This document shows positions 2,708 through 25,587 of a stretch of DNA of 25,918 nucleotides, one piece after another. The position numbers and the translations under genes were made by a program. Positions within the stretch are counted from its first letter, which is position 1, and each line of letters begins with the position of its first letter. The stretch is from a virus. The stretch lies in UHGV virus genome UHGV-0362220, one strand, 5' to 3'. Below the pieces are notes generated by a model, which made no database searches, was not told the origin of the DNA, and saw only the letters and a program-made list of their open reading frames with translations.

Positions 2708-2733
2708 ATAAAAAAGGCACCATTTCTGGTGCC
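2708..2733 (-). terminator. tJ-like intrinsic terminator between J and stf
   Basis: Minus-strand RNA: stem GGCACC (2733..2728), loop AGAAAU, stem GGUGCC (2721..2716), then UUUUUUAUUU. Ends 8 nt before the stf start codon. Confidence 0.5.
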
Positions 2734-2752
2734 CGAATTTGGGTTTTAAAAT

Positions 2753-5700
2753 TCAACTGATACTGATGCCGGCTGTTGATTTCTTCATCACGACAACAAG
2801 AAGGTCGCTGATACTGGTCGTTGGCGTCCAGTTATTTGCACCATATGAAGAAACATTGAAAGTCAGGGTGACATGGCCGTGTCCGGCAGGCATATCAATG
2901 ACTGATGAAAATACCCTGCTGACATCCGTCGCGGGTTGCTGAAAGATTTCCTGTCCGTTCTTCAGCACCTGCAGCTTACAGGTTGAATACCAGTATGACT
3001 GTTGGTTGTTGCTGTTGAAGTTTTCATGCTTACCACCGCGAAACAGAACGGGGGGGACGACTATCTGACGGTCAAAAGCCTGGTCATCGTACACAGTGAC
3101 CGTTATTGTACCGCTGGCATAACTGCCATTTCTCGGAAAGGCTTTTCCCACCGTTTTGACAATATCACCTTCAATCTGGTTAGCTGACAGTTTTCCCAGA
3201 ATCCGACAGTTCTGGTTAATCGTGACATTATTGAGCGTCCCGGAGTTCGCATTCACGTTACCGCTGATATCCGCATTTCTCGCAGAAAGTCGACCATCAG
3301 GTGTCAGTGAAAACGTTGGGGGATTGCCACCGCTGGTAATGGTGGGAGCCGTCAGATATTTCAGGAACACTTCGTTCATGAATATCTGATCGCCCTGCCC
3401 AACAAACATCGGCTTTGTATTGCCATTCGCAGGATTAATCATCGCAATCCTGTCCGCCGCCAGCAGCACCTGACTCTGCATACCGTCAGGGGTATTCTCA
3501 ATACCGGCACCAATACCCGCGATATAAAGGCGTCCGTCCTGCATCTGCTGCAGCTTCACAGCCCACATGCTGTTCAGGTTATTATTTGTATCAACCTGAA
3601 CCTTCTGTATCTGCTGGATCGCTGCACTCTGGTCTTCCAGTTTCTTATTGACGGTCTGCGTGATTTCATTGCTGACATCCGTAATGGACGTCCTGATTTC
3701 AGCCAGGTCAGGCGCAAGCTGACCGTTATCAATCTGCGTCCACAACTCCTGAGCCAGATGGGTTTTCCCTATCTCTCCTTTGAAAAAATCCAGATAGCCG
3801 GATGCATCATCACTCGGCTGGCCAACAGCCTCCACAAATGCCGATTTGCCAACGGTGTTCACACTGCGAATGTAAAAATAATAATCATGGCCCGGTTTGA
3901 TATTGATACTGGCGGCTATCCAGTACAGCGCCGTACCAAGATAACGCGCGCTGGCTTCAACCTGCCTGATATCCGCAATCCGCTTTTCCGAGAACCAGAA
4001 CTCAAACTGTACCGTCGGATCATAAACGGCAAGATGCGGCGTTGCGGTTATCTGAAAATAGCCCGGCGTCAGCTCAATCCGCGATGGCGCTGCCGGTGCG
4101 GCAATCCGGAACGATACCGACGCCGGATCCCCCTGCTGCCCCCACGCATTTACCGCCCGGACTGTCAGCCTGTAGTTCCCCAGCGCCAGTTGCCTGAAGC
4201 GGTATGTGGTTTCCGTCGTCCTGGCCGTGCTGACCAGCCGCTCACTGCCGTCATCCGCTGCCACGGTCAGGCGAAGCATAAAGCTCACCCCCTTCACCAC
4301 CTTCGGTGTGTCCCATCGCGCCAGCACCTGATATTCCCCGCTGTCTGCGGTGACTTCTGCGGTCAGGTGCTGCACCGCGGGCGGCGTGACACCATTCACC
4401 GTGCCACTCTGTTCGCCGTCAAAGTGCGCCCCGTTATCCACGATGGTCTCTTTTTCCGGCACATGCTGCACGGCGGTGATGGCATACGTGCCGTCGTCGT
4501 TTTCACGGATACTCACGCAGCGGAACAGTCGCTGGCGCAGCGTCGGCAGCTTCAGCCCCCATACGCTGTATTCAGCAACACCGTCAGGAACACGGCTCAC
4601 TTTCACCTTCACGCCGTCGGTGACGGACTGAACCTCCACGCTGACCGGATTGCCACTTCCGTCAACCAGGCTTATCAGCGTGGTACCGGAGGATGGCAGC
4701 GTGATTTCACGGTCGAGCGTCAGCGTCCGGGTCTGGCTGTTCACCGCCAGCACACGACCACCGGTGCTGATACCGGCATAGTCATCATCGCAGATTTCAA
4801 TGACATCCCCCGGTACATGGCGAAGCCCTTCAGCACCCACGCTGAAGTCCACGGTCTGCGTTTCCAGCAGCTCCGTTTTAATCAGCCACAGCCCGGCGCG
4901 GTGTGCCTGCCCCCGGCTGGTACAGCCAAAGGCATCCATCTTCGTGACGTTACGGCCGTAACGGGCAATGGCCTGCGTATCCTCCACGAGCTCTGTCGCC
5001 GTCTCCCAGCCGTTATCCGGGTCAATCCAGTTCACCTCAACGGCATTATGGCGGTCCTTCAGGGCGCTGAAGCTGTAGCGGAACGGCGCGCCATCATCCG
5101 GCATCACCACATTACTGCGGTTATAGGTCCACACCTTATCTGATGGTCGGTCCTGCACGAACGTCAGCGTCTGCCCGTTCCATACCGGCATACAGCGCAT
5201 CGCCGAGCAGAAATCACTGAGCACATCCCACGCCTTGCGCTGTGTGGTCAGGTACGCATTACAGGTAATGCGCGGCTCCGTGCCGCCAAAGCCGTCCGGC
5301 ACCGACTGGTCGCAGTACTGGCCGATGACATACAGCGCCCATTTATCCACATCCGCCGCACCAAGACGTTTCCCCATGCCGTAGCGCGGATGGGTCAGCA
5401 TATCCCACAGACACCAGGCCATGTTGTTGCTGTATGCCGGTTTTAACGTTCCGTCCCAGATACCGCTGTATTGCCGCGTCTGCGGGTTATAGTTCGACGG
5501 CACCTGCAGAATGCGCCCGCGAAGATGATAATTACGGCTCACCTGCTGGCTGCCGAACTGCTCCGAGTCCACCTGCACGCCAACCAGTGCCGTGTTCGGG
5601 TAGCACTGTTTCACATCGATGATTTCGGTGTATGACGACCAGAGCGTTTTGTTCAGCAGCTGGTCTGTGGTGCTGTCCGGCGTCATCCTGCGCATCCGGA

Positions 5701-6235
5701 TATTAAACGGGCGCGGCGGCAGGTTATCCACCACCACCGAGGCCAGATACTGCGAGGTGGTTTTGCCCTTAATGGTGATGTCTTTTTCCGTCACCCAGCC
5801 ACCGTTACGCTGTATCTGAACCAGCAGGCGAACTTCCGACGGATTCCTGTCTCCCTTTGAGGTGGTTTCCACCAGTGCCTGTACACCGAAGGTAAAGCGC
5901 AGACGGTCGATGTTTGCCGACGTGATGGTCCGGGTGATCGGCGTGTCATATTTCACTTCCGTACCCAGCACCGTCTCGGAGCCGGAGGATTCAAATCCCT
6001 CCGGCGGTGACTGCTCCTGCTCACCGGCCCGGAACACCACCGTGACGCCGGATATATTGGTATTCCCCTCACTGTCCAGCACCGGCGTACTGTTCAGCAG
6101 CACGCTTTTTAATCCATCCACCGGACCTTCAACCGGCCCTTCGCTGATGGCATCGATCACACTCAGCAGCTGCGTGGACTTCAGGTTGTCCTTCGCTTCG
6201 CGCGGGGTATGCCCCTTACTGCTGCCTTTACCCAT
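2753..6235 (-). CDS. J: tail tip central fiber / host specificity protein J (1160 aa)
   Basis: Near-identical to lambda J over the N-terminal ~790 aa as recalled ([34 protein letters not shown]...); central and C-terminal parts diverge. Confidence 0.95.
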
Positions 6236-6250
6236 TCGTCATGCTCCATA

Positions 6251-6277
6251 AACGATAAAACCGCCCGGAGGCGGTTT
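6251..6277 (-). terminator. weak hairpin plus U-rich tract between I and J
   Basis: Plus-strand stem CCGCC (6261..6265), loop CGGA, GGCGG (6270..6274), extendable by A-U pairs; on the minus strand followed by UUUUAUCGUUUAU then the J SD (GGAG) and start. Confidence 0.3.
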
Positions 6278-6295
6278 CACATAAAACGTTTTTCA

Positions 6296-6937
6296 TCAGC
6301 GACCAATCACCACAACCTGACCACCATCACCTTCATCTGCTGTGCTGATCTCCTGAGATACCACACGTGATCCCACGCGCATTTCACCGTACAGAACGGG
6401 CAGAACATTGCCCTGGGCAACCATATTATCCAGTGAAGAAAAATAGGTGTTCTGTTTGCCGTTATCCGTTGTCTGTGTGCGGGGGGTTCTGGGTTTAGGG
6501 GCCAGCATCTGTGCAACACCGCCAAGCGTCATACTGGCACCGAGAGAAAACAGCAGATTACTCGCCATAATTCCTACCCCCGGCATCCATATAGCAACCG
6601 CCATAACAGCCGCCCCCAGCACAGCCTGAAACACACCGCCACTTTTGGCTCCTGCCAGACGCGGCACGATATGGATCACAGCACCATTTGCCAGCGGTTC
6701 ATTAAGACGGGCTGATAATTCCGTTTCACCTGTATCACGCCCGGCAATCCGTACCTGATACCAGCCGTCGCTCAGTTTCTGACGAAACGCCGGGAGCTGT
6801 GTGGCCAGCGCCCGGATGGCTTCAGCCCCCGTTTTCACACGAAGGTCGATGCGGCGGCCAAATCGTTGTAAATCCCCGTAAAGGCAGATGCGCGCCATGC
6901 CCGGTGACGCCAGAGGGAGTGTGTGCGTCGCTGCCAT
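6296..6937 (-). CDS. I: tail assembly protein I
   Basis: N-terminal ~70 aa and C-terminal ~80 aa match lambda gpI as recalled (MAATHTLPLASPGMARICLYGDLQRFGRRIDLRVKTGAEAIRAL...; ...NGKQNTYFSSLDNMVAQGNVLPVLYGEMRVGSRVVSQE...). Overlaps K as in lambda. Confidence 0.95.
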   Translation of the reverse strand: MAATHTLPLASPGMARICLYGDLQRFGRRIDLRVKTGAEAIRALATQLPAFRQKLSDGWYQVRIAGRDTGETELSARLNEPLANGAVIHIVPRLAGAKSGGVFQAVLGAAVMAVAIWMPGVGIMASNLLFSLGASMTLGGVAQMLAPKPRTPRTQTTDNGKQNTYFSSLDNMVAQGNVLPVLYGEMRVGSRVVSQEISTADEGDGGQVVVIGR

Positions 6938-7578: not shown

Positions 7579-7588
7579 AAACCGGGAT

Positions 7589-8287
7589 TTACTGCGAAAG
7601 TTTATTAATGGAAAGGAAACCGCCAAAATTGCCGACATTCCTGCGCAGTTCACACCCGCGCATGCACTTGCTGCATCTGTCCTTACGGATATCCGTGGTG
7701 GGGTTGTCGAACTCATCCGCCACCGCAGGACCGTTATACCCGCATTCATCTCCCCGGTAATCCCACATACAGGTGTTCGCCAGCATGATGCGACCGGGAA
7801 ACAGCGCCCCATCCGTCTCGGTCGGTGTAGCCAGCACAAACGAGGCCGTCATGGCTGTCAGCTGCGACATCTGCTCCACCACCCAGCGGTCACTCAGCTC
7901 CTGCTCCGGGTCCGCCTCCGGATTGCCCGCAACGAAATTCACCGCATCCAGAAAACGGGCATACACCCGGCGGCGGACCACCGTGGCCCCCACCAGACTC
8001 TGCAGGTCTTCCGCCATCCCGGTGACCAGACCGAACAGATTGGACACCGTCAGCGACGGTCTGGCACTGCTGCCCTTCCCGCTCATCTCAAAACCGCTGC
8101 CGTCAATCGGGTATGCCTGATATTGCCGCCCCTGCCAGGTGACCGGCTCCCCTTTTTCATTCAGCTCATTACAGAAAAAATACCGCTCACCGCCCTGTAC
8201 CGTCAGGTCGATTTCCCAGAGTACCACCCGCGGTGACTGCTCTGACTTAACCGACTCGTTCAGACTTTCTTCGCGAATATCCTGCAT
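7589..8287 (-). CDS. L: minor tail protein L
   Basis: Lambda gpL-like (MQDIREESLNESVKSEQSPRVVLWEIDLT..., Cys-rich C-terminus). Start overlaps the M stop as ATGA. Confidence 0.9.
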   Translation of the reverse strand: MQDIREESLNESVKSEQSPRVVLWEIDLTVQGGERYFFCNELNEKGEPVTWQGRQYQAYPIDGSGFEMSGKGSSARPSLTVSNLFGLVTGMAEDLQSLVGATVVRRRVYARFLDAVNFVAGNPEADPEQELSDRWVVEQMSQLTAMTASFVLATPTETDGALFPGRIMLANTCMWDYRGDECGYNGPAVADEFDNPTTDIRKDRCSKCMRGCELRRNVGNFGGFLSINKLSQ

Positions 8288-8628
8288 CAGTTCACCACCT
8301 GCTCAATCGTACAACTGAAATCACTGTGCCTGGCGTTATCTGTGACGCTCCACTCCCGGCACACCACCCTCACCGTCAGGTTATGTTTCGGCGGTCGCCA
8401 CAAAAAGGCACGGTAACCACCATGCCACGATAAAAATTCATCCAGCCAGCGCCGGGTTGGTTCATCCGTCACCCGGAACACCGCCTGAAACGTCTTCAGT
8501 CTGGCATTAAGTCCCGTCGGTCGGCGCTGTTCATAACCGTCACCAAACCGAACCCTCACCACCGACGGTTTCTCACTCACCTGCATCCCTTCACGCGGGA
8601 CCAGATGCAGCGTTTTTATCTCAGCCAC
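8287..8628 (-). CDS. M: minor tail protein M
   Basis: Lambda gpM-like (...VRFGDGYEQRRPTGLNARLKTF...; ends EQVVN as in lambda M). Position between H and L. Confidence 0.9.
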   Translation of the reverse strand: MAEIKTLHLVPREGMQVSEKPSVVRVRFGDGYEQRRPTGLNARLKTFQAVFRVTDEPTRRWLDEFLSWHGGYRAFLWRPPKHNLTVRVVCREWSVTDNARHSDFSCTIEQVVN

Positions 8629-11863: not shown

Positions 11864-11881
11864 TCACCTTTCTCCGGGCGT

Positions 11882-11902
11882 AAAAAAACCGCCTCAGCGG
11901 TT
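11882..11902 (-). terminator. hairpin plus U7 tract between T and H
   Basis: Minus-strand RNA: AACCGC, loop UGAG, GCGGUU, then UUUUUUU (plus 11888..11882), then SD GGAGAAAGGUGA and the H AUG at 11863. Confidence 0.4.
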
Positions 11903-11910
11903 CTCATCAT

Positions 11911-12590: not shown

Positions 12591-12604
12591 GATGACCCAT
12601 CCCC

Positions 12605-13321: not shown

Positions 13322-13331
13322 TCTGCCTCCT

Positions 13332-13359
13332 GATAATAAAAAACCCGCACGCGGCGGGG
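13332..13359 (-). terminator. hairpin plus U6 tract just upstream of the major tail protein gene
   Basis: Minus-strand RNA: stem CCCGC, loop CGCGU, stem GCGGG (plus 13344..13358), then UUUUUUAUUAU, then SD AGGAGG and the V start at 13321. Confidence 0.4.
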
Positions 13360-13387
13360 TATGGGTTTTGTAGAAAAAAAGAAAAAG

Positions 13388-14522: not shown

Positions 14523-14531
14523 TCCCCCTCC

Positions 14532-14858
14532 TCATAACACCGTCGGACAACGCAAATCGTAAATCAGCACGGAAACAGAAAACGGCAGCTCCCCCTGAAG
14601 CAGTTCTTCCCGCTCCGCAAGATCCGGATTCCGGTACAGCATCCCGGTCAGTCGCATGGCAGCCCCCTTCATCCGGGTTAATGCCTCGCCCGGGATCAGT
14701 TCACCGTCCTCACGGATCACTTTATCCCGGCTGCCCTGAATGTAGGCCAGCAGCACGGCGGTAGCCTGACGAACCTTGTCCATCAGCATGTCATCATCCG
14801 CGTCATGGTCGACACGCAGATGTGCCTTGATCTCTTCCAGTGTCAGTAATGCCGTCAT
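14532..14858 (-). CDS. head-tail connector protein (gp6-like)
   Basis: N-terminal LTLEEIKAHLRVDHDADDDML motif typical of gp6-like connectors; directly downstream of and overlapping the portal gene. Confidence 0.7.
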   Translation of the reverse strand: MTALLTLEEIKAHLRVDHDADDDMLMDKVRQATAVLLAYIQGSRDKVIREDGELIPGEALTRMKGAAMRLTGMLYRNPDLAEREELLQGELPFSVSVLIYDLRCPTVL

Positions 14859-17116: not shown

Positions 17117-17283
17117 TCGCCATGCTCCGCATCACGTTTCTTTTTCTGACCTGCCGGACGTCGCACCGTGATGTACTCCGCCTTTCCCAGGCGAACCAGC
17201 ACCTCCGCACACGGCTGTGCCACATCACGGATATCCCCGGCCCGGGCATCATGCGTGCCCTGCAGATATCGGATCTTTGCCAT
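17062..17283 (-). CDS. hypothetical protein (73 aa) between capsid and portal genes
   Basis: ATG at 17283 downstream of an SD-hairpin arrangement; overlaps the annotated portal start by 55 nt; basic and lysine-rich. Coding status uncertain. Confidence 0.3.
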   Translation of the reverse strand: MAKIRYLQGTHDARAGDIRDVAQPCAEVLVRLGKAEYITVRRPAGQKKKRDAEHGECGTFYGEPEKTRNQDVT

Positions 17284-17293
17284 AACCTGTTAC

Positions 17294-17311
17294 GGGAGGC
17301 GCACGCCTCCC
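17294..17311 (-). promoter_or_regulatory. perfect 8-bp stem / 2-nt loop hairpin between an SD and the next start codon
   Basis: GGGAGGCG ca CGCCTCCC. On the minus strand: UGA (MCP stop), UAAGGAGGAC, hairpin, GUAACAGGUU, AUG at 17283. The hairpin contains GGGAGG and sits between the AGGAGG SD and the AUG. Confidence 0.5.
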
Positions 17312-17327
17312 GTCCTCCTTATCAGAC

Positions 17328-19265
17328 TCAGCCGCCGGACGCACTGCCGTAGTTCACTCCGGTGATCACCGCCACCGCCGCAGTACGGCGACGACGCCAG
17401 TTGATCCAGCGCTCCGCACGGATGGCCACGCTGCCTGTCTGGAACATGGAAACCAGCTCCACCGGGGACGGCGTGGTACTGTCGCCGGTCGGCTCAGACT
17501 GCATTTCCAGTGATGCCTCGCGGGACATATCCACTGCCACGCCGCCGTCATCCGCCAGATAAATATCCGGGGCATTCACCAGCACCAGCTGGTCACCCAC
17601 GTACTGGGAGACAATCACCGGCAGCCCCTGGAAGGAGCCACCCAGCAGGGTCATGTCCGGGTATTCCTTCTGACCCAGCGCATTTTTACGCATGGACAGT
17701 GCCAGGGCATTGGTGCTGGACATCAGCCAGACCGCACCGGTGGGCTGCAGGTTTGCTGCCACAAACTGTCCAAACGCAGCCTCTGCATCCGCATCCGGGT
17801 TACCGGTTGATGCCGTGCCCTTCACATCATGGGTGATGGACGCCGGGGAGACATCTGCCACTGCGGCTTTTTTCGGGTCCACAAAGTCTGTATCCAGACG
17901 CGCCACCACCGCTTCCGCCAGCGCATTACGGACCAGTGCATCAGCAGCCGGACTGGAAAAACGGATCAATTCTTCCGTCAGTACCGCAATGGCCGACACC
18001 TTCGCATGACTGAAGGTGATGGATTCAAAATCAAACTTCGTCAGGGGTTTTGCCTTACCCTCACCCACCCAGCCGGCAGCACCGCCGGACACCTGGGCGT
18101 GCACACGGATATTGAATGGCACCTGACGAAGTGCAGGGATCCCGCCCTGACCAAATCGCCCGATAATGGTCTGCGGACGCAGGTAATCAATAAAGTCCTG
18201 TGCGTATTCCTGATATTCAGACAGGCTGCCTGCCCACTGCGGATCCGTGGTGGTCCCCGCGCCCACTGCCGATTTCAGGACATGATGCAGACGACTGTCA
18301 TCCGGATACTGACGACGGGCCACTTCCAGGGCTTCAGATCGGACGCCTTTAGCCGCAGCCAGCGATTTGGCAAAGCGGGCGAAGCCAATCCCCTTATCCA
18401 GTTTCTGCTCCACACGGATCACCGGCGCAGAAGCCACCGCGGCCACATTCCCGTTACCGGCCTGTTTCACCGGCTGCGCCGTGGCGGCCTTACCGGCTTC
18501 CAGTTCACGCAGGCGCTTCAGGTGCGCATCCACCTGACGGATTTCCGCTGCGGTGTTGTCGTAATGCTCTTCCTCCTCCACATCCAGCGTGCGCCCTTCC
18601 TCTGCGGCTTTGGTCATGACCTCCTCAAGGGAGGCTGCCAGCGCTGCACGCTTGTTTTCAAAACTTTTAATCTGTTCGCCAATATTCATTATGGTCTTTT
18701 CCTTATGAAAAACGGTTGTTGACTGTGCCGCAGCGCCGGCAGAAGATGCGATTTTCACCACCGGTTTCCGGTTGCCGGACGCGGCAGAAAACGGGCGGTC
18801 GTAAGATTTAATGGTCCGGATGGTGCATTCCGCATTCGCGGGCACGGTGACGGCAGACACCTCCATCAGTTCCCAGCGCAGAAAATGCAGTCCGCCTCCG
18901 TCCAGAAAGGTGTATTCATGGGGACGGAAGCCCACGGACAGCCCCCTGACCAGCCCGGTCTTAATGGCCGCCCAGACCTCATCCAGCCGGGCAGCCAGTT
19001 GCGACGGCATATCCGGTACGGGCTTCACCAGTGTTGCCGTGATTTCCAGCCCTTCGCTGACCCGGCGCACCGTACACTGCCCCACCGGGCGGGAATGGTC
19101 ATGCTGCCAGAGAAACGGGATCGCACTGCCAAACTCCGCGCCCTCCGGCTCCAGGATGTCACCATCCCGATCCGGAGAAGGCGTTGACGCAATCCCGGTG
19201 ATCACCCGTTCATCCTCACTGAAGGATTTCACCGTCAGCAGGGAACAGGCCCGTTTAAGAGTCAC
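17328..19265 (-). CDS. prohead protease (S78 family) fused in frame to an HK97-type major capsid protein
   Basis: N-terminus has S78 protease motifs (QHDHSRPVGQ, GLSVGF, ELMEVSAVTVPAN); then a coiled-coil segment and a capsid-like C-terminal half. GTG start at 19265 with AGGAGG 5 nt upstream. An internal in-frame ATG (MNIGEQIKSFENKRAA...) has AAGGAAAAG upstream. Confidence 0.8.
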   Translation of the reverse strand: MTLKRACSLLTVKSFSEDERVITGIASTPSPDRDGDILEPEGAEFGSAIPFLWQHDHSRPVGQCTVRRVSEGLEITATLVKPVPDMPSQLAARLDEVWAAIKTGLVRGLSVGFRPHEYTFLDGGGLHFLRWELMEVSAVTVPANAECTIRTIKSYDRPFSAASGNRKPVVKIASSAGAAAQSTTVFHKEKTIMNIGEQIKSFENKRAALAASLEEVMTKAAEEGRTLDVEEEEHYDNTAAEIRQVDAHLKRLRELEAGKAATAQPVKQAGNGNVAAVASAPVIRVEQKLDKGIGFARFAKSLAAAKGVRSEALEVARRQYPDDSRLHHVLKSAVGAGTTTDPQWAGSLSEYQEYAQDFIDYLRPQTIIGRFGQGGIPALRQVPFNIRVHAQVSGGAAGWVGEGKAKPLTKFDFESITFSHAKVSAIAVLTEELIRFSSPAADALVRNALAEAVVARLDTDFVDPKKAAVADVSPASITHDVKGTASTGNPDADAEAAFGQFVAANLQPTGAVWLMSSTNALALSMRKNALGQKEYPDMTLLGGSFQGLPVIVSQYVGDQLVLVNAPDIYLADDGGVAVDMSREASLEMQSEPTGDSTTPSPVELVSMFQTGSVAIRAERWINWRRRRTAAVAVITGVNYGSASGG

Positions 19266-19282
19266 ATCAGCCTCCTGAAAAT

Positions 19283-19303
19283 AAAAAAACCGCCGGAGCG
19301 GTT
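19283..19303 (-). terminator. hairpin plus U7 tract just upstream of the capsid gene SD
   Basis: Minus-strand RNA: AACCGC, loop UCCG, GCGGUU, then UUUUUUUAUUUUC, then AGGAGG and the GTG start at 19265. Confidence 0.4.
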
Positions 19304-19328
19304 CGTGATGGTTACAGTGTGAACAGGG

Positions 19329-20990
19329 TTATATGAAAAAAACCGCATATTCTTTCTTTTTCGGTTCCGGGTTAAGGGACATCAGGGAGACCGCATTGAA
19401 CAGCGCCATCAGCGGGTCAATTTTTCCCCGTCCACTGGCCTGTTTGGTGATAAGAATGGCGTTACCTTTAGGCTCCACCCGGGCATTGCCGACACACCAG
19501 GCCATCAGGGGCTGGTCACCATGCACCAGCACCCCTTCAGCCAGTTTGCGCTCGGTGGTTTTAATGGCCCCGCCCAGTTTCCAGCCCTGGCTTATCCCCA
19601 CCACAATTCCGTCGGGGATCCCGGCTTCCGCCAGTGAATCCAGAATCTGCCCCACCCCTGACGGGTCAATACCGATATGGTCCAGTAACTCAGCCTCATG
19701 AATGCGACGCACATATTCCGCCACTTCCGCCGTGTCATCCCCGACACGCCGGACAATGGTCATATCTCCACAGGCAACAAGATCCTGAAACCGGGACGCC
19801 TCGCTCTTCCGTCGGACCACCGCGGTTTCATGCGCCCAGGCATGGCCCCAGCCCAGCCATTCGCGGGTCTCCCGGTCACGCCCAATCACATACATCCCCA
19901 GCAGATCATCCAGCCCTCCGCCGTCAATCCCCACCGTCACCACATCAGCACGACGCAGGATATCGTCCAGGCTGATACAACGGCCCTGCTCTTCCCAGAA
20001 ATCAGCCCCCGCCCAGCGGTCAGAGCGCAGGGCAAGACCAATTTCCACATTGGCGTGTTTTGACATGAACCCCCGGAATGTCTCTTCACCGGCTTCCCGG
20101 GCTTTACGGTACTCCCGGTACAGAAAGGCCTCATCCACTGAATAGCCGAGATTCGGATTGACCATGGCGAGGTTTTCCATCAGCAGGTTAGTCCCGCTTT
20201 CCACCATTTCAGGAGGGTGTTCAAATATCACCGGCAGAAAGTGCGGATCATGAATTTTGCCGTCGCGCACATCCCGGGCGTACTGCAGTTTCTGTCTGAA
20301 CACCCCGGCGGGCGGTTCATTCGACTGGGTGGTCGTATACACCACAAACCCTTCCGGGCGGGAGGCAAGGCCGCCTATGGCTTCACGTAACATGTCCTCC
20401 GCCTTGCACTGCTTGCCAAACAGCCACAACTCATCAATCAGCGTACCCACGGACTTGATACCGGACACCGTATTCGGATCGGCTGCCACCACCTTCAGGG
20501 TGGTGTCCGTCACTCGGTGGGTGATGGTCCGGATATGGGTCTGTACCTGGCAGAGGTCATCCAGATCATCGTCACGTCGTACCATATCCCGGGCAGGGTT
20601 GAAGGCGTTGGCCGCCACCTCCACAGTCGGGGCCAGAATCGTGTAACCCGCCGCCTGCCGCCAGTTCAGTAACAGTGCAGTCATCATGATCCCCGCGGCC
20701 AGCGTGGACTTCGAGTTTTTCTTGGGGATAAGGATAAAAACTTCCTTGATATGGCGTACACCGGTCTGCGCATCGTAGGAGCCAAACAGGGCCGCCACCA
20801 GGTCAAACACCCACGGTGCACAGGACTCCCCGAACGTAGGGCTACCAGGTGCATCCACAATCCGCAGTTGTTTAAAAATCGCCAGGGCATGTGCGGCCTC
20901 GTCCGGATAAATCGGATCCGGAATAATCGACAGCCCCTTTTTCAGGCGCTCTGCCCAGTCCGGGCAGGCTGTGCTCCATACAGGTATCAT
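19329..20990 (-). CDS. terL: terminase large subunit
   Basis: Walker A-like ILIPKKNSKST, Walker B-like LIDELWLF, and a C-terminal acidic nuclease-type region (VVTVGIDGGGLDDLLGMYVIG); start overlaps the terS stop as ATGA. Confidence 0.9.
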   Translation of the reverse strand: MIPVWSTACPDWAERLKKGLSIIPDPIYPDEAAHALAIFKQLRIVDAPGSPTFGESCAPWVFDLVAALFGSYDAQTGVRHIKEVFILIPKKNSKSTLAAGIMMTALLLNWRQAAGYTILAPTVEVAANAFNPARDMVRRDDDLDDLCQVQTHIRTITHRVTDTTLKVVAADPNTVSGIKSVGTLIDELWLFGKQCKAEDMLREAIGGLASRPEGFVVYTTTQSNEPPAGVFRQKLQYARDVRDGKIHDPHFLPVIFEHPPEMVESGTNLLMENLAMVNPNLGYSVDEAFLYREYRKAREAGEETFRGFMSKHANVEIGLALRSDRWAGADFWEEQGRCISLDDILRRADVVTVGIDGGGLDDLLGMYVIGRDRETREWLGWGHAWAHETAVVRRKSEASRFQDLVACGDMTIVRRVGDDTAEVAEYVRRIHEAELLDHIGIDPSGVGQILDSLAEAGIPDGIVVGISQGWKLGGAIKTTERKLAEGVLVHGDQPLMAWCVGNARVEPKGNAILITKQASGRGKIDPLMALFNAVSLMSLNPEPKKKEYAVFFI

Positions 20991-21550
20991 CCGTTGCCCT
21001 CATTATCGTTATTCACCACCAGTCGGGGGGGCGGTGGCACCGCAAAACGGTTAGCCGCTTTTTTCGCGGCATCACCTTTTGCCGATTTTTTCCCGGTATC
21101 CCCTTTTTTATGGTGCGTGAACTGCGCCAGACGCCAGGCCGCATCCAGTGCCAGTTTCGGATCAATGCAGAGGTTTTCCACCAGGATCCGCCCCATGGCT
21201 TTCACCGGATCGGGAAGACCATCCTCCATATATTCAATACCAGGAGACATCACCGCGGACGGTGGCATCTCCAGATTGTTTTCGTCCGGCTGTGGTATTG
21301 CAGCCGCCTCACGGCGACGGGGTTTATCCTCCTGCTCTGATTTTTTCTGCCGGTAAACAGGAACCTCATCCACCTCCACCGTCTCGCATTGTTTACGGGC
21401 TATAAACGCAAGCACCTCAGGATCTTTTGCCAGCTGCGAGCCTTTAACCCTGGCGGTCTTCGCCGAATAACCGGCGGCAATGGCTGACGCTGTTTTGTTT
21501 TTCCCGGACATGAGCGCCAGCGCAAATTTTCGTTTTTGCGTTGTCAGCAC
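20987..21550 (-). CDS. terS: terminase small subunit (N-terminal helix-turn-helix type)
   Basis: N-terminal KRKFALALMSGKNKTASAIAAGYSAKTARVKGSQL matches the small-terminase HTH pattern; coupled to terL. GTG start at 21550 is uncertain. Confidence 0.8.
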   Translation of the reverse strand: MLTTQKRKFALALMSGKNKTASAIAAGYSAKTARVKGSQLAKDPEVLAFIARKQCETVEVDEVPVYRQKKSEQEDKPRRREAAAIPQPDENNLEMPPSAVMSPGIEYMEDGLPDPVKAMGRILVENLCIDPKLALDAAWRLAQFTHHKKGDTGKKSAKGDAAKKAANRFAVPPPPRLVVNNDNEGNG

Positions 21551-21626
21551 AGCCTCCTCCCGGGTCCAGAACGCACTCAGCCGGGTATGGTTCAGCCCAT
21601 TTTTCCCGGCGTCTCATGCCGCAAAT

Positions 21627-21746
21627 GTTAACTGCTGCCTGGTTAACATTTGCTGAAAAAGCCTGTTAACATTTTTTCCGCACAACAAACTGAATAATAA
21701 AGATAAAAACCGCAAAAATGCCCGGGCAGCCAGTTAACATGTTAAC
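21627..21746. promoter_or_regulatory. cluster of five GTTAAC palindromes upstream of terS; candidate terminase recognition (cos/pac-proximal) region
   Basis: GTTAAC at 21627, 21642, 21665, 21733 and 21741, two of them in the direct repeat GTTAACATTT, within the 290-bp HNH-terS intergenic region. Confidence 0.4.
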
Positions 21747-21840
21747 TGCCCTGAAACGGGAATTTTTTCTCTGCGTGAGAGGGGGCGCGGTGTCCAAAGC
21801 GATCGTTTTTTACGCCGGATGATACCCCCCCCGGGTTGGG

Positions 21841-22206
21841 TTACAGTCCGATGATGTCGTCCTCTCTGCCACTACCTCCGGACACCTCCGGCAGCGTCGG
21901 GTCCGGCATACCACTCGCCGCTTCACGAGCAGACTTTTGTCGATGGCATTCGGCACAGAGCGTCCAAAGATTCGTCTCCTCATTACCACCACCGAACTGA
22001 AGTGCAATTCGGTGATCGAGTTCACTGTCACAGAGGTCAACCACACGACCACAGATACAGCACTGCCCGGCGTCCCTCAGCCAGATATGACGCTTGAGGG
22101 AAACACGTGCACTGCCACTGACACGACGCTGCTCCCCCTTCAGAATATTCACCCGTCGGGTATTCAGTGTTTTGATTCTGCTCTGGAGTGTACGAAGCTC
22201 AGCCAT
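21841..22206 (-). CDS. HNH homing-type endonuclease (terminase-associated)
   Basis: Classic HNH motif: CCICGR...DHRIALQFGG...NLWTLCAECHRQK. Lies immediately upstream of the terminase genes. Confidence 0.9.
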   Translation of the reverse strand: MAELRTLQSRIKTLNTRRVNILKGEQRRVSGSARVSLKRHIWLRDAGQCCICGRVVDLCDSELDHRIALQFGGGNEETNLWTLCAECHRQKSAREAASGMPDPTLPEVSGGSGREDDIIGL

Positions 22207-22247
22207 GTAAAATCCCCGTCATATGGCAATCAGTAAAGGAAATAAAT

Positions 22248-22448
22248 ATGTCATCGAAAAACCGGACCCGCAGAACCACAACCCGCAATATCCGTTTCCC
22301 CAATCACATAATTGAACAGATCAACATCGCCCTTGAGCATAAAGGGTCCGGTAACTTTTCAGCGTGGGTTATTGAAGCCTGCAGGAGAAGGCTGGCAACA
22401 GATGCAACGCATCTGCGCCCGGCCAGCATGACAAATAACGAGAAATGA
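22248..22448 (+). CDS. YlcI-like (DUF3950-type) small protein, 66 aa
   Basis: ATG at 22248 with AAGGA 7 nt upstream; MSSKNRTRRTTTRNIRFPN...GSGNFSAWVIEACRRRL resembles the prophage YlcI family as recalled. On the opposite strand to the late operon. Confidence 0.65.
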   Translation: MSSKNRTRRTTTRNIRFPNHIIEQINIALEHKGSGNFSAWVIEACRRRLATDATHLRPASMTNNEK

Positions 22449-22646
22449 ACGTTCGGTTTCTTCCACCATCGCACCGGACAGGCGACTATGAGGGGACAAC
22501 GCCGCGCTCCGTTAACGCGGTAAACCCCGGTGTGTATCGTTTTTGATTATCCCCGCACACTCGCGCAGAGGAGTCTCCCTGTCGGGCTGCGGTCTCTGTT
22601 AATGCAGGAATACGGCGACAATACCGCGCATGGATAATAAGGTCGC

Positions 22647-22862
22647 TCAACACACTGGCTGTAATACCATGCGGCATTTAGCGGCATTCATCGTACACTC
22701 CACGGTTAGCTCTTCATTCGTGGCATTCACCTGAAAGGTCCGGGAGTGTAATTGCGTACATTTACCACTGAACGAACCTTCAACAAGAACACGACCACGC
22801 TGCAAAATACGGAACGGAATTGTTCCCTGAAAAGGTTCTACGGTTACCCGTAATTTCTTCAT
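22647..22862 (-). CDS. hypothetical protein (71 aa), translationally coupled to Rz
   Basis: ATG overlaps the Rz stop (ATGA at 22859..22862) with GGAGGA 4 nt upstream. [13 protein letters not shown]...; no family recognised. Confidence 0.5.
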
Positions 22863-23353
22863 GTATCCTCCGGATAATAAAAAGCCAGCTTAGTGCACTG
22901 AGTGCGGATATATTCCTGCGCCCCTTCCAGCTGCTTCTGCATTGTCATCAACCGTTCTCTGAGGATGAAATAATCCCGTTCAGCGGTGTCTGCCAGTCGG
23001 GGGCCGGTTGCATTATCCACGCTGGAGGTGCCGGTGGCTTCACGCACGGTACCGGGGCAGGTGGCGTTGACCCGCAGGCGCTTACGACCAGCGGCAACAT
23101 CAGCGCGCAGAGTTTCATTTTCAGCTCTCGCATCGGCTAATTCCTTCGTGTATCTGGCATCAAGCGCAGCGACATCTCGCTGGCGCTGCTGCATGTCAGT
23201 AATAGTGGCATTCGCCAGTTTCAGCTCACTGACTTTTTTATCGCGCTGCGCTTTGTAGGTGATGGCGTTATCGCGGTAATGATTCAGCCCCAGACTAAGC
23301 ACACCACAGGCTACCAGCATGACAATAATCACCACACACAGAACACGGTTCAT
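22859..23353 (-). CDS. Rz: i-spanin Rz
   Basis: From ATG 23353 ([17 protein letters not shown]...[16 protein letters not shown]...[23 protein letters not shown]) matches lambda Rz as recalled. The listed 192-aa ORF is a GTG-initiated upstream extension. Confidence 0.9.
22948..23133 (-). CDS. Rz1: o-spanin Rz1 (lipoprotein), embedded in Rz in the +1 frame
   Basis: [25 protein letters not shown]...[27 protein letters not shown] matches lambda Rz1; lipobox VSAC; proline-rich mature part. Confidence 0.85.
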
Positions 23354-23354
23354 A

Positions 23355-23441
23355 TCACCACCAACGGATTGCCCAGACCAGAACAGCAATGGCCACAATA
23401 CGAATGGCAAATGCCATTGCCCGAATAAGTTCAGCACTCAT
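23355..23441 (-). CDS. candidate 28-aa hydrophobic peptide immediately upstream of Rz
   Basis: ATG 23441 to TGA 23357..23355 ([28 protein letters not shown]); the stop overlaps the Rz start region (UGAUAUG). Weak SD (AAAAAG). Absent from the ORF track because it is under 60 aa. Confidence 0.3.
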
Positions 23442-23705
23442 CTTTTTAAAGTTCACGATTTCAGCGCAATGACCAGTTTTGCCAGCCCATACAGCATCGG
23501 AGACACAGCAATACCAACAGCCACCCACTTAATAGCAAAAGCCAGCGCTCTGCTGATGTCATCAGTCACTGTCACCCCAGCAGCCCCGACGAAGACAACA
23601 TCACCCAGGCGAGGGACAGAAAAAGAGCAACCAGCATTAGTGAAAATGAAATACCGACAATCACACACAGGACCTTTGCCGGCGTTATGAGTTTGTCTGA
23701 CATAG

Positions 23706-23801
23706 CTACCCCTTAATTGCCACAATTAACTGGGATACTACCCATAAAAAAGGGATGCTCCAGACCAGCAAAAATTTCCAGTTTGGTAATTGACTAATCA
23801 T
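23706..23801 (-). CDS. candidate 31-aa single-transmembrane peptide between endolysin and Rz
   Basis: ATG at 23801 with AGGGAG 9 nt upstream (MISQLPNWKFLLVWSIPFLWVVSQLIVAIKG). Nested as an in-frame internal start in the listed 70-aa ORF, whose GTG start lies inside the terminator hairpin. Confidence 0.35.
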   Translation of the reverse strand: MISQLPNWKFLLVWSIPFLWVVSQLIVAIKG

Positions 23802-23865
23802 GAGTCGCAACTCCCTAATCAGTTTGCTAAAATCAATCAAGGCAGCCTCCCATAGCTTACTGCCA

Positions 23866-23910
23866 TAAAAACAAAACCCCGCTTGCTGCCAACAAACGGG
23901 GTTTTTACTT
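23866..23910. terminator. bidirectional intrinsic terminator inside the lysis cassette, between endolysin and Rz
   Basis: 9-bp stem AAAACCCCG (23873..23881) / CGGGGTTTT (23897..23905), 15-nt loop; U-rich tracts follow on both strands (plus UUUUUACUUUU; minus UUUUGUUUUUAU). Confidence 0.6.
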
Positions 23911-23995
23911 TTATTCACTTAGGTTTTGCCAGTTCACAGGACTTCGTGTTATCCGCCCGCGTTGGCCAACCTCATTTTTCAGCAAAATATTCTGC

Positions 23996-24529
23996 TTATC
24001 TGTCGATTCCCCAGCACGCCAGCGCGCTCTCCTGGTCACGACGGAATACCTGACCGTAACAGTTATTTGAGCGAATACGGCAGTCTCTGCCACCGTCCTT
24101 AATCCACCAGCGAATCGCTTCGCATGCTCCCCTGCGATCACCTGCATTAATTCGTCTGTAAAACGTCGACGGGAAACACTTACCGGGACCAATGTTGTAC
24201 GGACAGAATGACGCGATCCCCGCTTTCTGGGGTTCGGTCAATGGCACTTTGATGTTTTTCTCCACCCATGCCAGCGCCTTATCACGCTCAATGGCGTTAA
24301 CCCGGTCGCATTTTTCCTTCGACAACTTCATGCCCGGAACGACAGGTTTGCCATCCACCAGGATGGCACCGCGGCAGATGGTCCAGATACCCGCGCCATC
24401 ACGGTATGCCGTGGTGTGGTTACCTTCCTTTTCATCCAGAAACTGGTCGAGAATGTCAGGCGCAGGCGCACCAGCGGCAATCAGCGCCAGAACGGCAGCC
24501 GACAGGCCGTATCTGATTTTTGCGTTCAT
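23996..24529 (-). CDS. endolysin, T4-lysozyme (GH24) type with N-terminal signal-anchor-release (SAR) segment
   Basis: Catalytic triad spacing E-9-D-6-T in LDEKEGNHTTAYRDGAGIWT; Gly/Ala-rich weakly hydrophobic N-terminus (GLSAAVLALIAAGAPA); eight cysteines in the catalytic domain. Confidence 0.9.
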   Translation of the reverse strand: MNAKIRYGLSAAVLALIAAGAPAPDILDQFLDEKEGNHTTAYRDGAGIWTICRGAILVDGKPVVPGMKLSKEKCDRVNAIERDKALAWVEKNIKVPLTEPQKAGIASFCPYNIGPGKCFPSTFYRRINAGDRRGACEAIRWWIKDGGRDCRIRSNNCYGQVFRRDQESALACWGIDR

Positions 24530-24634
24530 GGATATTTATCAGGATTTATCGGTTTCTGAGCCCTGGATATGTTTATCAGTTCCAGCCTGTTGCCTCAGGC
24601 TGCTAACAGGTCAATACAATCATGAGGATTATTT

Positions 24635-24907
24635 ATGGACAATAACACCATTTCTCTACAGGAGTTGCTCGACAGCATTTCCAGGCTTCGGGAAGACGTG
24701 AATACCCTTACCGTCGCCTTCTCATATCTGGCATTCTCAATTCCAAGGGAACAGATGCAATCAACGCTGGCATCAATCCAGTTTGAATCATGCAATCCCA
24801 AATGGTCTCAGGAACAACAAGACTCTTTCAGGCGGCTTGCTGTATTACTGGATGAAAAATATGCTGGTAAAATTACCATTTCGGCGGACTCTTCAGAGAA
24901 CCCGTAA
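24635..24907 (+). CDS. hypothetical protein (90 aa) encoded antisense within the lysis cassette
   Basis: ATG 24635 with GAGGA 7-9 nt upstream; protein-like helical sequence; rare codons (AGG, CGG, CTA) and locally lower GC suggest foreign origin; 3' end overlaps the YdfR-like ORF by 35 nt. Confidence 0.45.
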   Translation: MDNNTISLQELLDSISRLREDVNTLTVAFSYLAFSIPREQMQSTLASIQFESCNPKWSQEQQDSFRRLAVLLDEKYAGKITISADSSENP

Positions 24908-25217
24908 TTATTCCCGGTAGTTTTCCTCTGTAGGTTATCAACACATCCTGCGCCTCTAAAATTACGGGGCGCTTTTCCGGCGACTGCTCATCCCCTTCAC
25001 ATAACCCGGCAGCAACATCCAGGAAGACCTGTCTGATGCTCCTTCTGGCTGCTGCCTCATAAAACTCCAGCGCGGCACCTTCAACACGGTCCAGCGAGAT
25101 GTCCAGGTCAAAAATTTCACCGTCAAAGCGTTTTTTGTCCCGTAACGCTAAAGTTACCGTAACTTTATTCTCAAAATTGCGGATCCCTTTCACAATCAGT
25201 TCATAGTTTTGAGTCAT
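24873..25217 (-). CDS. YdfR-like hypothetical protein (114 aa) between holin and endolysin
   Basis: ATG 25217 lies 4 nt after the holin stop with GGGGAGAG upstream. Similar position to ydfR between the holin and lysozyme genes of E. coli prophage Qin (recalled, not verified). Confidence 0.55.
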   Translation of the reverse strand: MTQNYELIVKGIRNFENKVTVTLALRDKKRFDGEIFDLDISLDRVEGAALEFYEAAARRSIRQVFLDVAAGLCEGDEQSPEKRPVILEAQDVLITYRGKLPGIITGSLKSPPKW

Positions 25218-25221
25218 TGAA

Positions 25222-25437
25222 TTACTCTCCCCGTGCCGCCTTACGACGGTCCTCTCTGATTTTGAAATACAGGTTAGTCAGATATGTCAGCAGCCCAAAC
25301 AGCAGACTCCCCAGCACGCCTATTGCCGCCCACTGAGACGGGGAAACCCTGTCCAGCAACTGCAGGAACCAGTAGCCCGTTCCCACCGCTGACGTGGTGT
25401 ATGACACACCTGTTGTGATTTTTTCCATCTGGTACAT
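25222..25437 (-). CDS. class II holin / pinholin of phage 21 S type, with dual-start motif
   Basis: [71 protein letters not shown]; C-terminal two-thirds match phage 21 S as recalled. Starts at M1 (25437) and M4 (25428); SD GGGAGA upstream. The listed 97-aa ORF contains the terminator and is not used. Confidence 0.85.
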
Positions 25438-25472
25438 ACCCCGTCTCCCGTTATCCGGAAGCTGACAACAAT

Positions 25473-25503
25473 AAAAAAAGCCACCAGTTAAGTACTGATG
25501 GCT
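25473..25503 (-). terminator. tR'-like intrinsic terminator immediately upstream of the holin gene
   Basis: Minus-strand RNA: stem GCCAUCAG, loop UACUUAA, stem CUGGUGGC (8 bp, one G-U), then UUUUUUUAU; about 35 nt upstream of the holin start. Confidence 0.6.
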
Positions 25504-25587
25504 CTGATAACTCATGCAGGCATCTCAGACGACCCACTGACACTACCGGTGAGTTTAACGATACCTTCCATTTGACTGGCTCACTTT

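What the first reader, a model, noticed from the sequence alone, without database searches (positions are those of the whole stretch)
2708..25503. Recurring GC hairpin plus U-tract placed just 5' of the SD of major late genes
At least six minus-strand elements share one architecture: a short GC stem (often CCGC/GCGG with a 4-nt loop), a run of 6-7 U, then within ~10-25 nt the SD and start of a major gene. They precede the holin (25473..25503), capsid (19283..19303), V (13332..13359), H (11882..11902), J (6251..6277) and stf (2708..2733). Three share nearly the same stem (CCGC-N4-GCGG). They look like intrinsic terminators that a Q-modified polymerase would read through, but could also act as 3' stabilisers of upstream segments or processing sites.
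Basis: seen in the sequence. Interest (0 to 1): 0.45.

Follow-up and report, generated by a model that had tools for sequence, protein, structure and literature searches.

The report
Internal terminators in prophage late operon
The recurring GC hairpin plus U-run elements are real, conserved Rho-independent terminators at the few non-overlapping gene junctions of a lambda-like prophage's late operon, a feature already annotated in phage HK97 and present in lambda itself, so the finding is correct but ordinary.

Summary
All six minus-strand hairpin/U-tract elements are at the stated coordinates. A stringent terminator definition finds 7 on the late-gene strand against 0.53 expected. Six of the 7 are intergenic; the I|J element fails only the U-tract criterion.

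The window is the late operon of an EHEC-type lambdoid prophage, 90-97% identical to Stx phages. In 43-78 related loci per junction a hairpin is almost always present. Stem sequences differ and show compensatory changes (3 of 8 pairs after J; 5 of 12 before the holin).

Accessory genes ("morons") found in relatives always lie upstream of the hairpin. These are two lipoprotein genes and lom.

HK97's GenBank record annotates "putative terminator" at the homologous junctions. Lambda has them at D|E, E|FI, J|lom and lom|stf. P2 and Mu, which lack antitermination, have none inside their late operons.

Best reading: these are intrinsic terminators that stop unmodified polymerase in the lysogen and are read through by Q-loaded polymerase. 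Their closeness to the next ribosome-binding site reflects genome compaction. The shared CCGC-N4-GCGG stem is a generic design. Function is untested here, and the literature calls the roles of such terminators "not known". Low novelty, low interest.

The parts
25470..25505 (-). Terminator-like hairpin (12 bp, loop 5) plus U-run. Its stem ends 39 nt upstream of the P21-type holin start at 25437.
   Evidence: -17 kcal/mol, z -6.3. In relatives a hairpin sits here behind different upstream genes, and 5 of 12 pairs show compensatory changes. Holin identity.
19280..19304 (-). Terminator GAACCGC-TCCG-GCGGTT plus U7 between the TerL stop (19329) and the protease-capsid fusion start (19265).
   Evidence: A strict terminator is present in 61 of 61 related loci with 9 stem-loop alleles, including CCCGC/GCGGG, CCCCGC/GCGGGG and ACCGC-TTCG-GCGGT.
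13338..13369 (-). Terminator CCCGC-CGCGT-GCGGG plus U6, extendable to AAAACCC...GGGUUUU. It lies between the tail-completion (U-like) gene and the major tail gene V.
   Evidence: Present in 76 of 77 related loci by the strict definition. Positional homologue of the HK97 annotated terminator 6692-6719 between gp11 and gp12.
11880..11905 (-). Terminator GAGAACCGC-TGAG-GCGGTTTTT. It starts 7 nt after the T stop and lies upstream of tape-measure gene H.
   Evidence: Present in 70 of 70 related loci. A second allele is AAAACCTGC-TGTG-GCAGGTTTT. In 3 loci a 137-aa lipoprotein moron sits between T and the hairpin. Homologue of HK97 8398-8422, which follows moron gp15.
6248..6277 (-). Strong hairpin AAACCGCC-TCCG-GGCGGTTT with a weak, interrupted U-tract (UUUUAUCGUUU). 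It lies between tail genes I and J.
   Evidence: -17 kcal/mol. It fails the strict U-tract criterion. A relaxed definition finds a hairpin in 76 of 78 related loci. Twelve loci carry a 112-aa lipoprotein moron upstream of a different hairpin allele, GAGCCGCC-TTTT-GGGCGGCTT. Homologue of HK97 15107-15129.
2709..2734 (-). Terminator GGGCACCA-GAAA-TGGTGCCT plus U6 between J and the stf-like tail-fibre gene.
   Evidence: Across 11 alleles, 3 of 8 pairs show compensatory changes and 98.9% of cells are paired. In 40 of 43 related loci an insert of more than 150 nt (a lom-type cassette with its own terminator) follows this hairpin. Lambda has equivalents at 18920-18935 and 19612-19633.
23866..23905 (-). 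Additional terminator-like element not in the finding: a 15-bp hairpin plus U-run after the endolysin gene.
   Evidence: -21.1 kcal/mol. Conserved in many relatives, and replaced by a different hairpin (GGCACC-GTAAT-GGTGCC) in others.
17292..17313 (-). Additional hairpin ACGGGAGGCG-TG-CGCCTCCCGT after the protease-capsid gene, with no U-run. It belongs to the set of junction hairpins but is not terminator-like.
   Evidence: -18.9 kcal/mol. Conserved with covarying stems in relatives.

Best explanation
These are genuine Rho-independent terminators embedded in the Q-antiterminated late operon of a lambdoid prophage. They occupy the few junctions where neighbouring genes do not overlap. In this phage family those junctions are also the slots where accessory genes (morons) come and go.

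Proposed mechanism. In the lysogen, some polymerases have not been loaded with Q at pR'. These are transcripts from moron promoters, spurious internal starts and read-in transcription. Such a polymerase forms the hairpin at the U-tract and terminates. This gives moron transcripts their 3' ends and keeps lysis and virion genes silent. After induction, Q-loaded polymerase reads through all of them.

The U-tract abuts the next Shine-Dalgarno sequence because the junction holds nothing but the terminator and the ribosome-binding site.

Shown here: terminator anatomy, non-random and strand-specific intergenic placement, conservation with compensatory changes, position at the 3' edge of moron slots, and homology to annotated HK97 terminators.

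Inferred: actual termination, Q read-through, and the insulating role.
For: - Seven strict terminators lie on the gene strand against 0.53 expected, and six are intergenic. Every gap of >=44 nt holds a hairpin. Folding is stable.
- Relatives keep a hairpin at each junction: 61/61, 76/77, 70/70 and 43/43 by the strict definition, and 76/78 at I|J by a relaxed one. Stem alleles differ while U-tracts are retained.
- Compensatory changes occur in 3 of 8 pairs after J and 5 of 12 pairs before the holin.
- By contrast, the one strict hit inside a coding region (gene M) is not kept in other M alleles.
- Co-directional morons in relatives lie upstream of the hairpin, that is, the hairpin closes the slot. 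These are a 137-aa lipoprotein at T|H, a 112-aa lipoprotein at I|J, and lom at J|stf.
- The HK97 record annotates putative terminators at homologous junctions with the same hairpin/T-run/SD layout.
- Lambda has them at D|E, E|FI, J|lom and lom|stf.
- A close relative encodes Q upstream of the holin.
- With the same finder, P2 and Mu (activator-driven late operons without processive antitermination) have no intergenic internal terminators.
- Stems are 5-12 bp, the length class bypassed by a processive antitermination system, whereas stems of >=14 bp resisted it (PMC10325885).
- Q forms a nozzle that blocks terminator-hairpin formation (PMC9388147 abstract).
- A phage-L genome paper proposes the same role for such terminators (PMC8022706).
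- Morons are expressed while late genes stay silent in lysogens (PMC7067206).
Against: - No 3'-end, termination or read-through data were available. Function is inferred.
- The window does not contain Q or pR', so Q dependence rests on relatives.
- The promoter scan finds no consensus sigma-70 site on the gene strand at 12900-25918, and only four weak ones in K and stf. What these terminators would stop in this particular prophage is therefore unclear.
- TerL|capsid and U|V host no moron in any of the 61 and 77 sampled loci, so the moron link does not cover all sites.
- The I|J element has a poor U-tract.
- The T|H stem starts 7 nt after the stop codon and the holin-proximal one about 9 nt after an upstream stop. 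At those distances a trailing ribosome largely suppresses a terminator (PMC4824070).
- The P2/Mu contrast rests on two phages only.
- The related loci are not independent samples.
Confidence: 0.6

Rival explanations
1. Their main role is post-transcriptional. After endonucleolytic cleavage of the long late transcript in the A/U-rich stretch downstream, each hairpin becomes a 3' barrier to exonucleases and sets the half-life of the upstream segment.
For: The hairpins are stable and conserved. The U/A-rich single-stranded tracts just 3' of them resemble RNase E target sequence (my own knowledge). A clearly U-less conserved hairpin follows the capsid gene, so this phage does use non-terminator hairpins. 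This role is not exclusive of termination.
Against: A stabiliser needs no U-tract, yet U6-U8 is retained across unrelated stem alleles. The U-tract hairpins follow low-copy products (TerL, tail completion, T, I, J), not the abundant ones. Stems of 5-15 bp are too short for RNase III, which needs about two helical turns (established knowledge).
Confidence: 0.2
2. They are partial terminators (attenuators) even for Q-loaded polymerase. They step transcript abundance down along the operon to help set virion protein stoichiometry.
For: The phage-L authors list this as one possible consequence (PMC8022706). Elements before H, J and stf precede low-copy proteins.
Against: Elements also precede the two most abundant products, the capsid fusion and major tail protein V. 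For lambda, relative late-gene expression was attributed to translation initiation (Sampson et al. 1988; reference verified, content from my own knowledge). Q-loaded polymerase is described as termination-deficient (abstracts listed).
Confidence: 0.1
3. They are neutral leftovers of moron cassettes or mosaic recombination joints, with no present function for the phage.
For: Hairpins mark the 3' edge of moron slots, and the same hairpin allele occurs with and without the moron at T|H. The lom cassette's boundaries coincide with the 3' ends of two terminators.
Against: Compensatory substitutions and retained U-tracts indicate purifying selection. Two junctions never carry a moron in the sample yet always carry the terminator. 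The unselected in-coding hairpin is not conserved.
Confidence: 0.07
4. They serve translation. The hairpin insulates the downstream ribosome-binding site from upstream structure, and the U-tract acts as an S1-binding or standby enhancer for genes that cannot be translationally coupled.
For: Stem end to start codon is 14-22 nt at five sites, with good SDs. HK97 has the same layout. U-rich leaders can enhance translation (my own knowledge).
Against: The layout is equally expected from compaction. The same generic hairpin occurs without a nearby start in 58 of 83 unrelated viral contexts. The holin element is 39 nt away. Nothing here tests translation.
Confidence: 0.05

Closest known systems
Putative terminators annotated inside the HK97 late operon (GenBank AF069529; Juhala et al. 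2000)
   Same: Same junctions: tail-completion|major tail, (moron)|tape measure, and (morons)|J. Same layout of GC stem, T-run, then SD and start within about 15-22 nt. V and H are clear homologues of HK97 gp12 and gp16.
   Different: Stem sequences differ. HK97 also has elements after the portal, major capsid and major tail genes. This window has one after TerL and none with a U-run after the capsid gene. HK97 carries morons (gp15, gp22/23) where the window has none.
Phage lambda late operon with Q/pR'/tR' antitermination
   Same: One long late operon read by Q-loaded polymerase. Strict co-directional terminators lie at D|E, E|FI, J|lom and lom|stf. The lom|stf hairpin is homologous to the one in this family's lom-bearing relatives.
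   Different: Lambda's U|V, T|H and I|J junctions lack them. The window lacks lom, so one terminator serves the J|stf junction. The window does not include Q, pR' or tR'.
Intra-operon terminator in P22-like phage L (PMC8022706)
   Same: A predicted Rho-independent terminator inside a single-promoter, antitermination-dependent late operon. The authors offer the same two candidate roles.
   Different: A different virion module (podovirus), and one site discussed rather than a series. The authors state that the roles of such terminators are not known.
Processive-antitermination operons with several internal terminators (conAn in pLS20; Tn916 insulator terminator)
   Same: Multiple ordinary-length intrinsic terminators are bypassed only by modified polymerase. 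Terminators act as insulators against premature expression of a mobile element.
   Different: Gram-positive conjugative elements with unrelated antiterminators. Those were tested experimentally, whereas nothing here is.
Prophage sRNAs ending in intrinsic terminators (StxS at tR', AgvB/AsxR, HnrS)
   Same: Same prophage family. Hairpin plus U-tail elements in or near the late region bind Hfq.
   Different: None of them maps to the six elements. Rfam finds nothing in the window, and the HnrS segment is absent.

Membership tests
Rho-independent (intrinsic) terminator | Compact GC-rich stem-loop (about 5-12 bp, short loop) | tested here: met
   Stems of 5-12 bp with 4-5 GC pairs and loops of 4-5 nt. 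Energies are -9.9 to -17 kcal/mol.
Rho-independent (intrinsic) terminator | U-tract immediately 3' of the stem | tested here: met
   U6-U7 at five sites. The I|J site has only UUUUAUCGUUU and fails the strict criterion.
Rho-independent (intrinsic) terminator | Co-directional with transcription and placed after a stop codon | tested here: met
   All are on the gene strand, 7-29 nt after the upstream stop. The plus strand has only 2 hits, both inside coding sequence.
Rho-independent (intrinsic) terminator | Pairing maintained in evolution | tested here: met
   Compensatory changes in 3 of 8 pairs after J and 5 of 12 pairs before the holin. Multiple stem alleles occur at the other sites.
Rho-independent (intrinsic) terminator | Releases transcripts at the U-tract in vitro or in vivo | not testable with these tools
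   No 3'-end data could be read. The Sakai Term-seq data set exists (PMC7547250), but its tables are not held.
Internal terminators of a Q-antiterminated lambdoid late operon | The operon is served by a Q antiterminator acting at pR' | tested here: inconclusive
   The window stops short of Q and pR'. A relative at about 92% identity has an annotated Q roughly 6.7 kb upstream of the holin.
Internal terminators of a Q-antiterminated lambdoid late operon | Positional homology to terminators described in characterised lambdoid phages | tested here: met
   HK97 6692-6719, 8398-8422 and 15107-15129. Lambda 18920-18935 and 19612-19633.
Internal terminators of a Q-antiterminated lambdoid late operon | Read through by Q-loaded polymerase but not by unmodified polymerase | not testable with these tools
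   Needs in vitro transcription or induction experiments.
Moron-associated terminator (Hendrix/Juhala definition) | An extra gene present in some relatives and absent in others between two conserved genes | tested here: met
   Met at T|H, I|J and J|stf. No insert was seen at TerL|capsid (0 of 61) or U|V (0 of 77), so it is not met at those two.
Moron-associated terminator (Hendrix/Juhala definition) | Terminator immediately 3' of the inserted gene | tested here: met
   A hairpin lies just before the downstream gene in 3 of 3 (T|H), 12 of 14 (I|J) and 40 of 40 (J|stf) insert-bearing loci.
Moron-associated terminator (Hendrix/Juhala definition) | Own promoter upstream of the inserted gene | not tested
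   Promoters of the inserts in related loci were not scanned. The window itself carries no insert at these sites.
RNase III processing site | About 20 bp or more of double-stranded RNA | tested here: not met
   The longest stem among the six is 12 bp. The post-endolysin hairpin is 15 bp with two G-U pairs.
Described RNA families and prophage sRNAs | Match to an Rfam model or to HnrS | tested here: not met
   No Rfam hit at gathering threshold. The window lacks the HnrS-bearing segment of Sakai Sp9.

The most novel reading that the evidence does not exclude
The elements may be conditional, ribosome-gated terminators. Their stems start only 7-29 nt after the upstream stop codon. A closely trailing ribosome would therefore suppress them, and they would fire only on untranslated or uncoupled transcripts. 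In that case they act as a translation-checked silencer of late genes, independent of Q. The same T-tract-bounded cassettes would be the physical docking points where morons are gained and lost. Some could also yield Hfq-binding 3'-end RNAs in lysogens, as tR' does for StxS.
Probability: 0.12. Interest if true: 0.5.

Novelty: already known. Interest (0 to 1): 0.2.

Why it matters
It matters little as a discovery. Internal terminators in lambdoid late operons have been annotated since the HK97 genome, and they are implicit in the textbook picture of Q antitermination.

The modest value is that their role is still described as unknown (PMC8022706). This family, with hundreds of sequenced EHEC prophages, offers a natural experiment:
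- the same junctions occur with and without morons;
- the stems have turned over many times;
- there is a contrast with P2 and Mu.

If the insulating role is right, these elements help keep lysis genes and virion genes silent in lysogens that carry Shiga-toxin phages.

Tried and rejected
- Chance was rejected by simulation and by intergenic concentration.
- The idea that the three similar stems form a specific repeat family was rejected. Of 122 matches, 83 lie in unrelated contexts, often with UUCG- or GNRA-type loops.
- No known RNA family matches: Rfam gave no hit.
- I checked whether any element is a known EHEC prophage sRNA. HnrS (EcOnc10-12) lies antisense between Rz and the HNH gene in Sakai Sp9, and that segment is missing from the window. 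AgvB and AsxR lie upstream of the window's extent.
- The strict hit inside gene M was rejected as a selected element because other M alleles lack it.
- My first loose RNAfold-based terminator scan gave 32 and 48 hits on the two strands. It was uninformative and was replaced.
- The tool's own loose scan likewise shows no excess: 11 against 11.7 expected, and 18 against 13.2.
- I could not obtain Juhala et al. 2000, Sampson et al. 1988 or the Sakai Term-seq tables.
- A suspected frameshift in the gene upstream of the holin was not supported, because the relative's protein has no match in the window.

Full report
**What the window is.** The 25.9-kb window is 90-97% identical over about 85% of its length to Stx1a/Stx2a-converting phages and to phage vB_EcoS-569R3. 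All its genes run on the minus strand in lambdoid late-operon order:
- P21-type holin, endolysin, Rz/Rz1 and an HNH nuclease;
- TerS and TerL;
- a 645-aa S78-protease/HK97-capsid fusion and the portal;
- head-tail genes, a tail-completion (U-like) gene and major tail protein V;
- G/T, an HK97-type tape measure H, then M, L, K, I and J;
- an stf-like fibre gene.

A close relative carries an annotated Q antiterminator, tRNAs and stx2AB about 6.7 kb upstream of its holin. The window itself stops before that region.

**Checking the observation.** Each of the six elements is present at the given coordinates on the minus strand. Five are a compact GC hairpin followed directly by U6-U7. The element before J has a strong stem (-17 kcal/mol) but only UUUUAUCGUUU after it.

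The built-in loose scan shows no overall excess of terminator-like sites. My first loose scan did not either. A stringent definition does. It requires a perfect stem of at least 5 bp, at least 4 GC pairs, a loop of 3-8 nt and at least 6 T in 8. It gives 7 hits on the gene strand against 0.53 expected (maximum 3 in 100 simulations), and only 2 on the other strand.

Six of the seven lie in intergenic DNA, which makes up only about 390 nt of the ~21.4 kb from TerS onwards. Every gap of 44 nt or more in that stretch (6 of 6) contains a GC hairpin. Folding z-scores are -4.3 to -6.3 for five of the six.

- a 15-bp hairpin plus U-run after the endolysin;
- a 9-10-bp hairpin with no U-run after the capsid gene;
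- a weak hairpin plus T-rich run at the end of the U-like gene.

**Conservation.** I fetched related loci around V, I and TerL and extracted each junction by anchoring on the flanking proteins. A strict terminator sits just before the downstream gene at four junctions:

| Junction | Loci with strict terminator |
|---|---|
| TerL\|capsid | 61 of 61 |
| U\|V | 76 of 77 |
| T\|H | 70 of 70 |
| J\|stf | 43 of 43 |

At I|J the strict definition finds only 12 of 78 loci, because the U-tract is weak throughout the family. A relaxed definition finds a hairpin in 76 of 78.

The stems are not the same sequence. TerL|capsid has nine stem-loop alleles, including CCGC/GCGG, CCCGC/GCGGG, CCCCGC/GCGGGG and ACCGC-TTCG-GCGGT. 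T|H has CCGC/GCGG or CCTGC/GCAGG. The U-run is kept throughout.

After J, 11 alleles give 98.9% paired cells, with compensatory double changes in 3 of 8 pairs. No slid register shows any compensatory change. Before the holin, where the upstream gene differs between phages, RNAalifold finds 12 pairs, 5 of them with compensatory changes.

The one strict hit inside a coding region (gene M, 8407-8426) is absent from other M alleles that encode the same motif. That is the behaviour expected of an unselected match. The related loci are many near-identical prophages, so the counts describe alleles rather than independent events.

**Association with morons.** Three of the junctions carry extra genes in some relatives:
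- a 137-aa lipoprotein gene between T and H (3 loci);
- a 112-aa lipoprotein gene between I and J (12 loci);
- lom between J and stf (inserts of more than 150 nt, lom-type, in 40 of 43 loci).

sodC lies on the opposite strand between I and J in LC567829. In every co-directional case the extra gene lies upstream of a hairpin that directly precedes the next conserved gene.

At J|stf the lom-bearing phages have one terminator after J and a second after lom. The window and three loci lack lom and keep a single terminator. The boundaries of the cassette coincide with the 3' ends of the two terminators. TerL|capsid and U|V never carry an insert in the sample.

**Comparison with what is known.** The HK97 GenBank record annotates seven co-directional 'putative terminator' features within its late operon. 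These include gp11|major tail, moron gp15|tape measure and morons|J. Their sequences show the same hairpin, T-run, SD and start layout.

With my strict finder, lambda has co-directional terminators at D|E, E|FI, J|lom and lom|stf.

[quoted passage not shown] It offers two possibilities: partial termination, or stopping spurious transcription that starts without antitermination (PMC8022706). Morons are defined as units with their own promoter and terminator (PMC3594210).

The same finder applied to P2 and Mu finds no intergenic internal terminator. Their late operons are activator-driven and lack processive antitermination. Only operon-end terminators are found there. This fits the idea that such elements are tolerated because of antitermination, but it rests on two phages.

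**The shared stem.** CCGC-N4-GCGG-T4 occurs twice in the window against none expected. The TerL|capsid and T|H elements differ only in two loop bases. Of 122 matches, 83 are in contexts with no similarity to the window, frequently with UUCG-type loops. Some sit at T|H-, I- and stf-type junctions of more distant lambdoid phages. The stem is a common terminator design, not a signature of a special family.

**Mechanism.** I favour plain intrinsic termination of polymerase that has not been loaded with Q, together with read-through by Q-loaded polymerase.
- Stems of 5-12 bp are in the class bypassed by a processive antitermination system, whereas stems of 14 bp or more resisted it (PMC10325885).
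- Q is described as forming a nozzle that prevents terminator-hairpin formation.
- In lysogens, morons are transcribed while late genes stay silent (PMC7067206).

The retained U-tracts argue against a purely stabilising hairpin. So does the placement after low-copy genes (TerL, tail completion, T, I, J). The single hairpin after the abundant capsid gene has no U-run and may be a true stabiliser.

Stem end to start codon is 14-22 nt at five sites. That leaves room only for the U-run, a spacer and the SD, so closeness to the SD is most simply compaction.

One nuance is the spacing from stop codon to stem, which is 7-29 nt. That is the range in which a trailing ribosome suppressed lambda tR2 in vivo, with full efficiency only beyond about 27-30 nt (PMC4824070). 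The elements may therefore act mainly on untranslated transcripts.

**Limits.**
- Nothing here measures termination, read-through or RNA stability.
- The window lacks Q and pR'.
- No consensus promoter was found on the gene strand between 12900 and 25918, so the transcripts being stopped in this particular prophage are not identified.

**Verdict.** The feature is already known in kind and at homologous positions. Interest is low. The only open point is the experimentally untested role of such terminators.

Noticed in passing
window 17284-17327 (hairpin 17292-17313, minus strand): After the protease-capsid gene, a conserved hairpin without a U-run lies between a GGAGG and the ATG of the 73-aa ORF, about 30 nt apart. 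Folding would bring the SD-like GGAGG to normal spacing from the ATG. Relatives keep the GGAGG-hairpin-ATG arrangement with different stems (for example GGCGGGG-GAAA-CCCCGCC). This may be a split ribosome-binding site as well as a 3' stabiliser.
   Followed up: partly
window 23866-23905 (minus strand): A 15-bp hairpin flanked by A4 and a U-run, and so potentially bidirectional, follows the endolysin gene and sits inside the late operon. It is conserved in many relatives and replaced by another hairpin in others. The stem is unusually long, and in another system stems of >=14 bp resisted antitermination.
   Followed up: partly
window 8407-8426 (minus strand, inside gene M): A canonical-looking terminator (8-bp stem plus UUUUUG) lies within coding sequence. 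It is specific to this M allele and absent from other alleles encoding the same HGG.(R/K)AF.W motif, so it is probably a chance product of codon choice.
   Followed up: yes
window 13370-13401 (minus strand): A weak 7-bp hairpin overlaps the stop of the U-like gene and is followed by a long T-rich run (CTTTTTCTTTTTTTC). The run length varies among relatives. Together with the main element it gives a tandem arrangement before V.
   Followed up: no
window 2701-2752: The window lacks lom between J and stf. Only 3 of 43 related loci share this lom-less junction. In one locus (L129) a 2.1-kb insertion interrupts the 3' arm of the J terminator.
   Followed up: partly
window 22403-22455; L084 (Sakai Sp9) about 2134-2383: In Sakai Sp9 the Hfq-dependent sRNA HnrS (EcOnc12) lies antisense between Rz and the HNH gene. 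The window aligns on both sides of it but has a 53-nt replacement instead, so it lacks HnrS.
   Followed up: partly
L245 (Sakai Sp15) 1492-1731, the I|J intergenic region: The published Hfq-binding peak EcOnc22 lies in the 240-nt I|J spacer of Sp15, antisense to the late operon. EcOnc22 is about 85 nt and is destabilised without Hfq. An antisense terminator lies next to the I stop and a forward hairpin lies before J. The I|J slot can therefore host a reverse small transcription unit.
   Followed up: partly
window 8287-8628 versus loci L085-L164: Many loci chosen for 90-100% identity in protein I carry M proteins that are far more divergent, down to about 30% identity to the window's M. This indicates a sharp mosaic boundary within the tail-tip gene block.
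   Followed up: no
window 25515-25918: The DNA upstream of the holin terminator has only a 66-aa ORF (25588-25788). It has no similarity to the 90-aa protein annotated at that position in LC567829. This is another variable slot whose content in this window was not identified.
   Followed up: no
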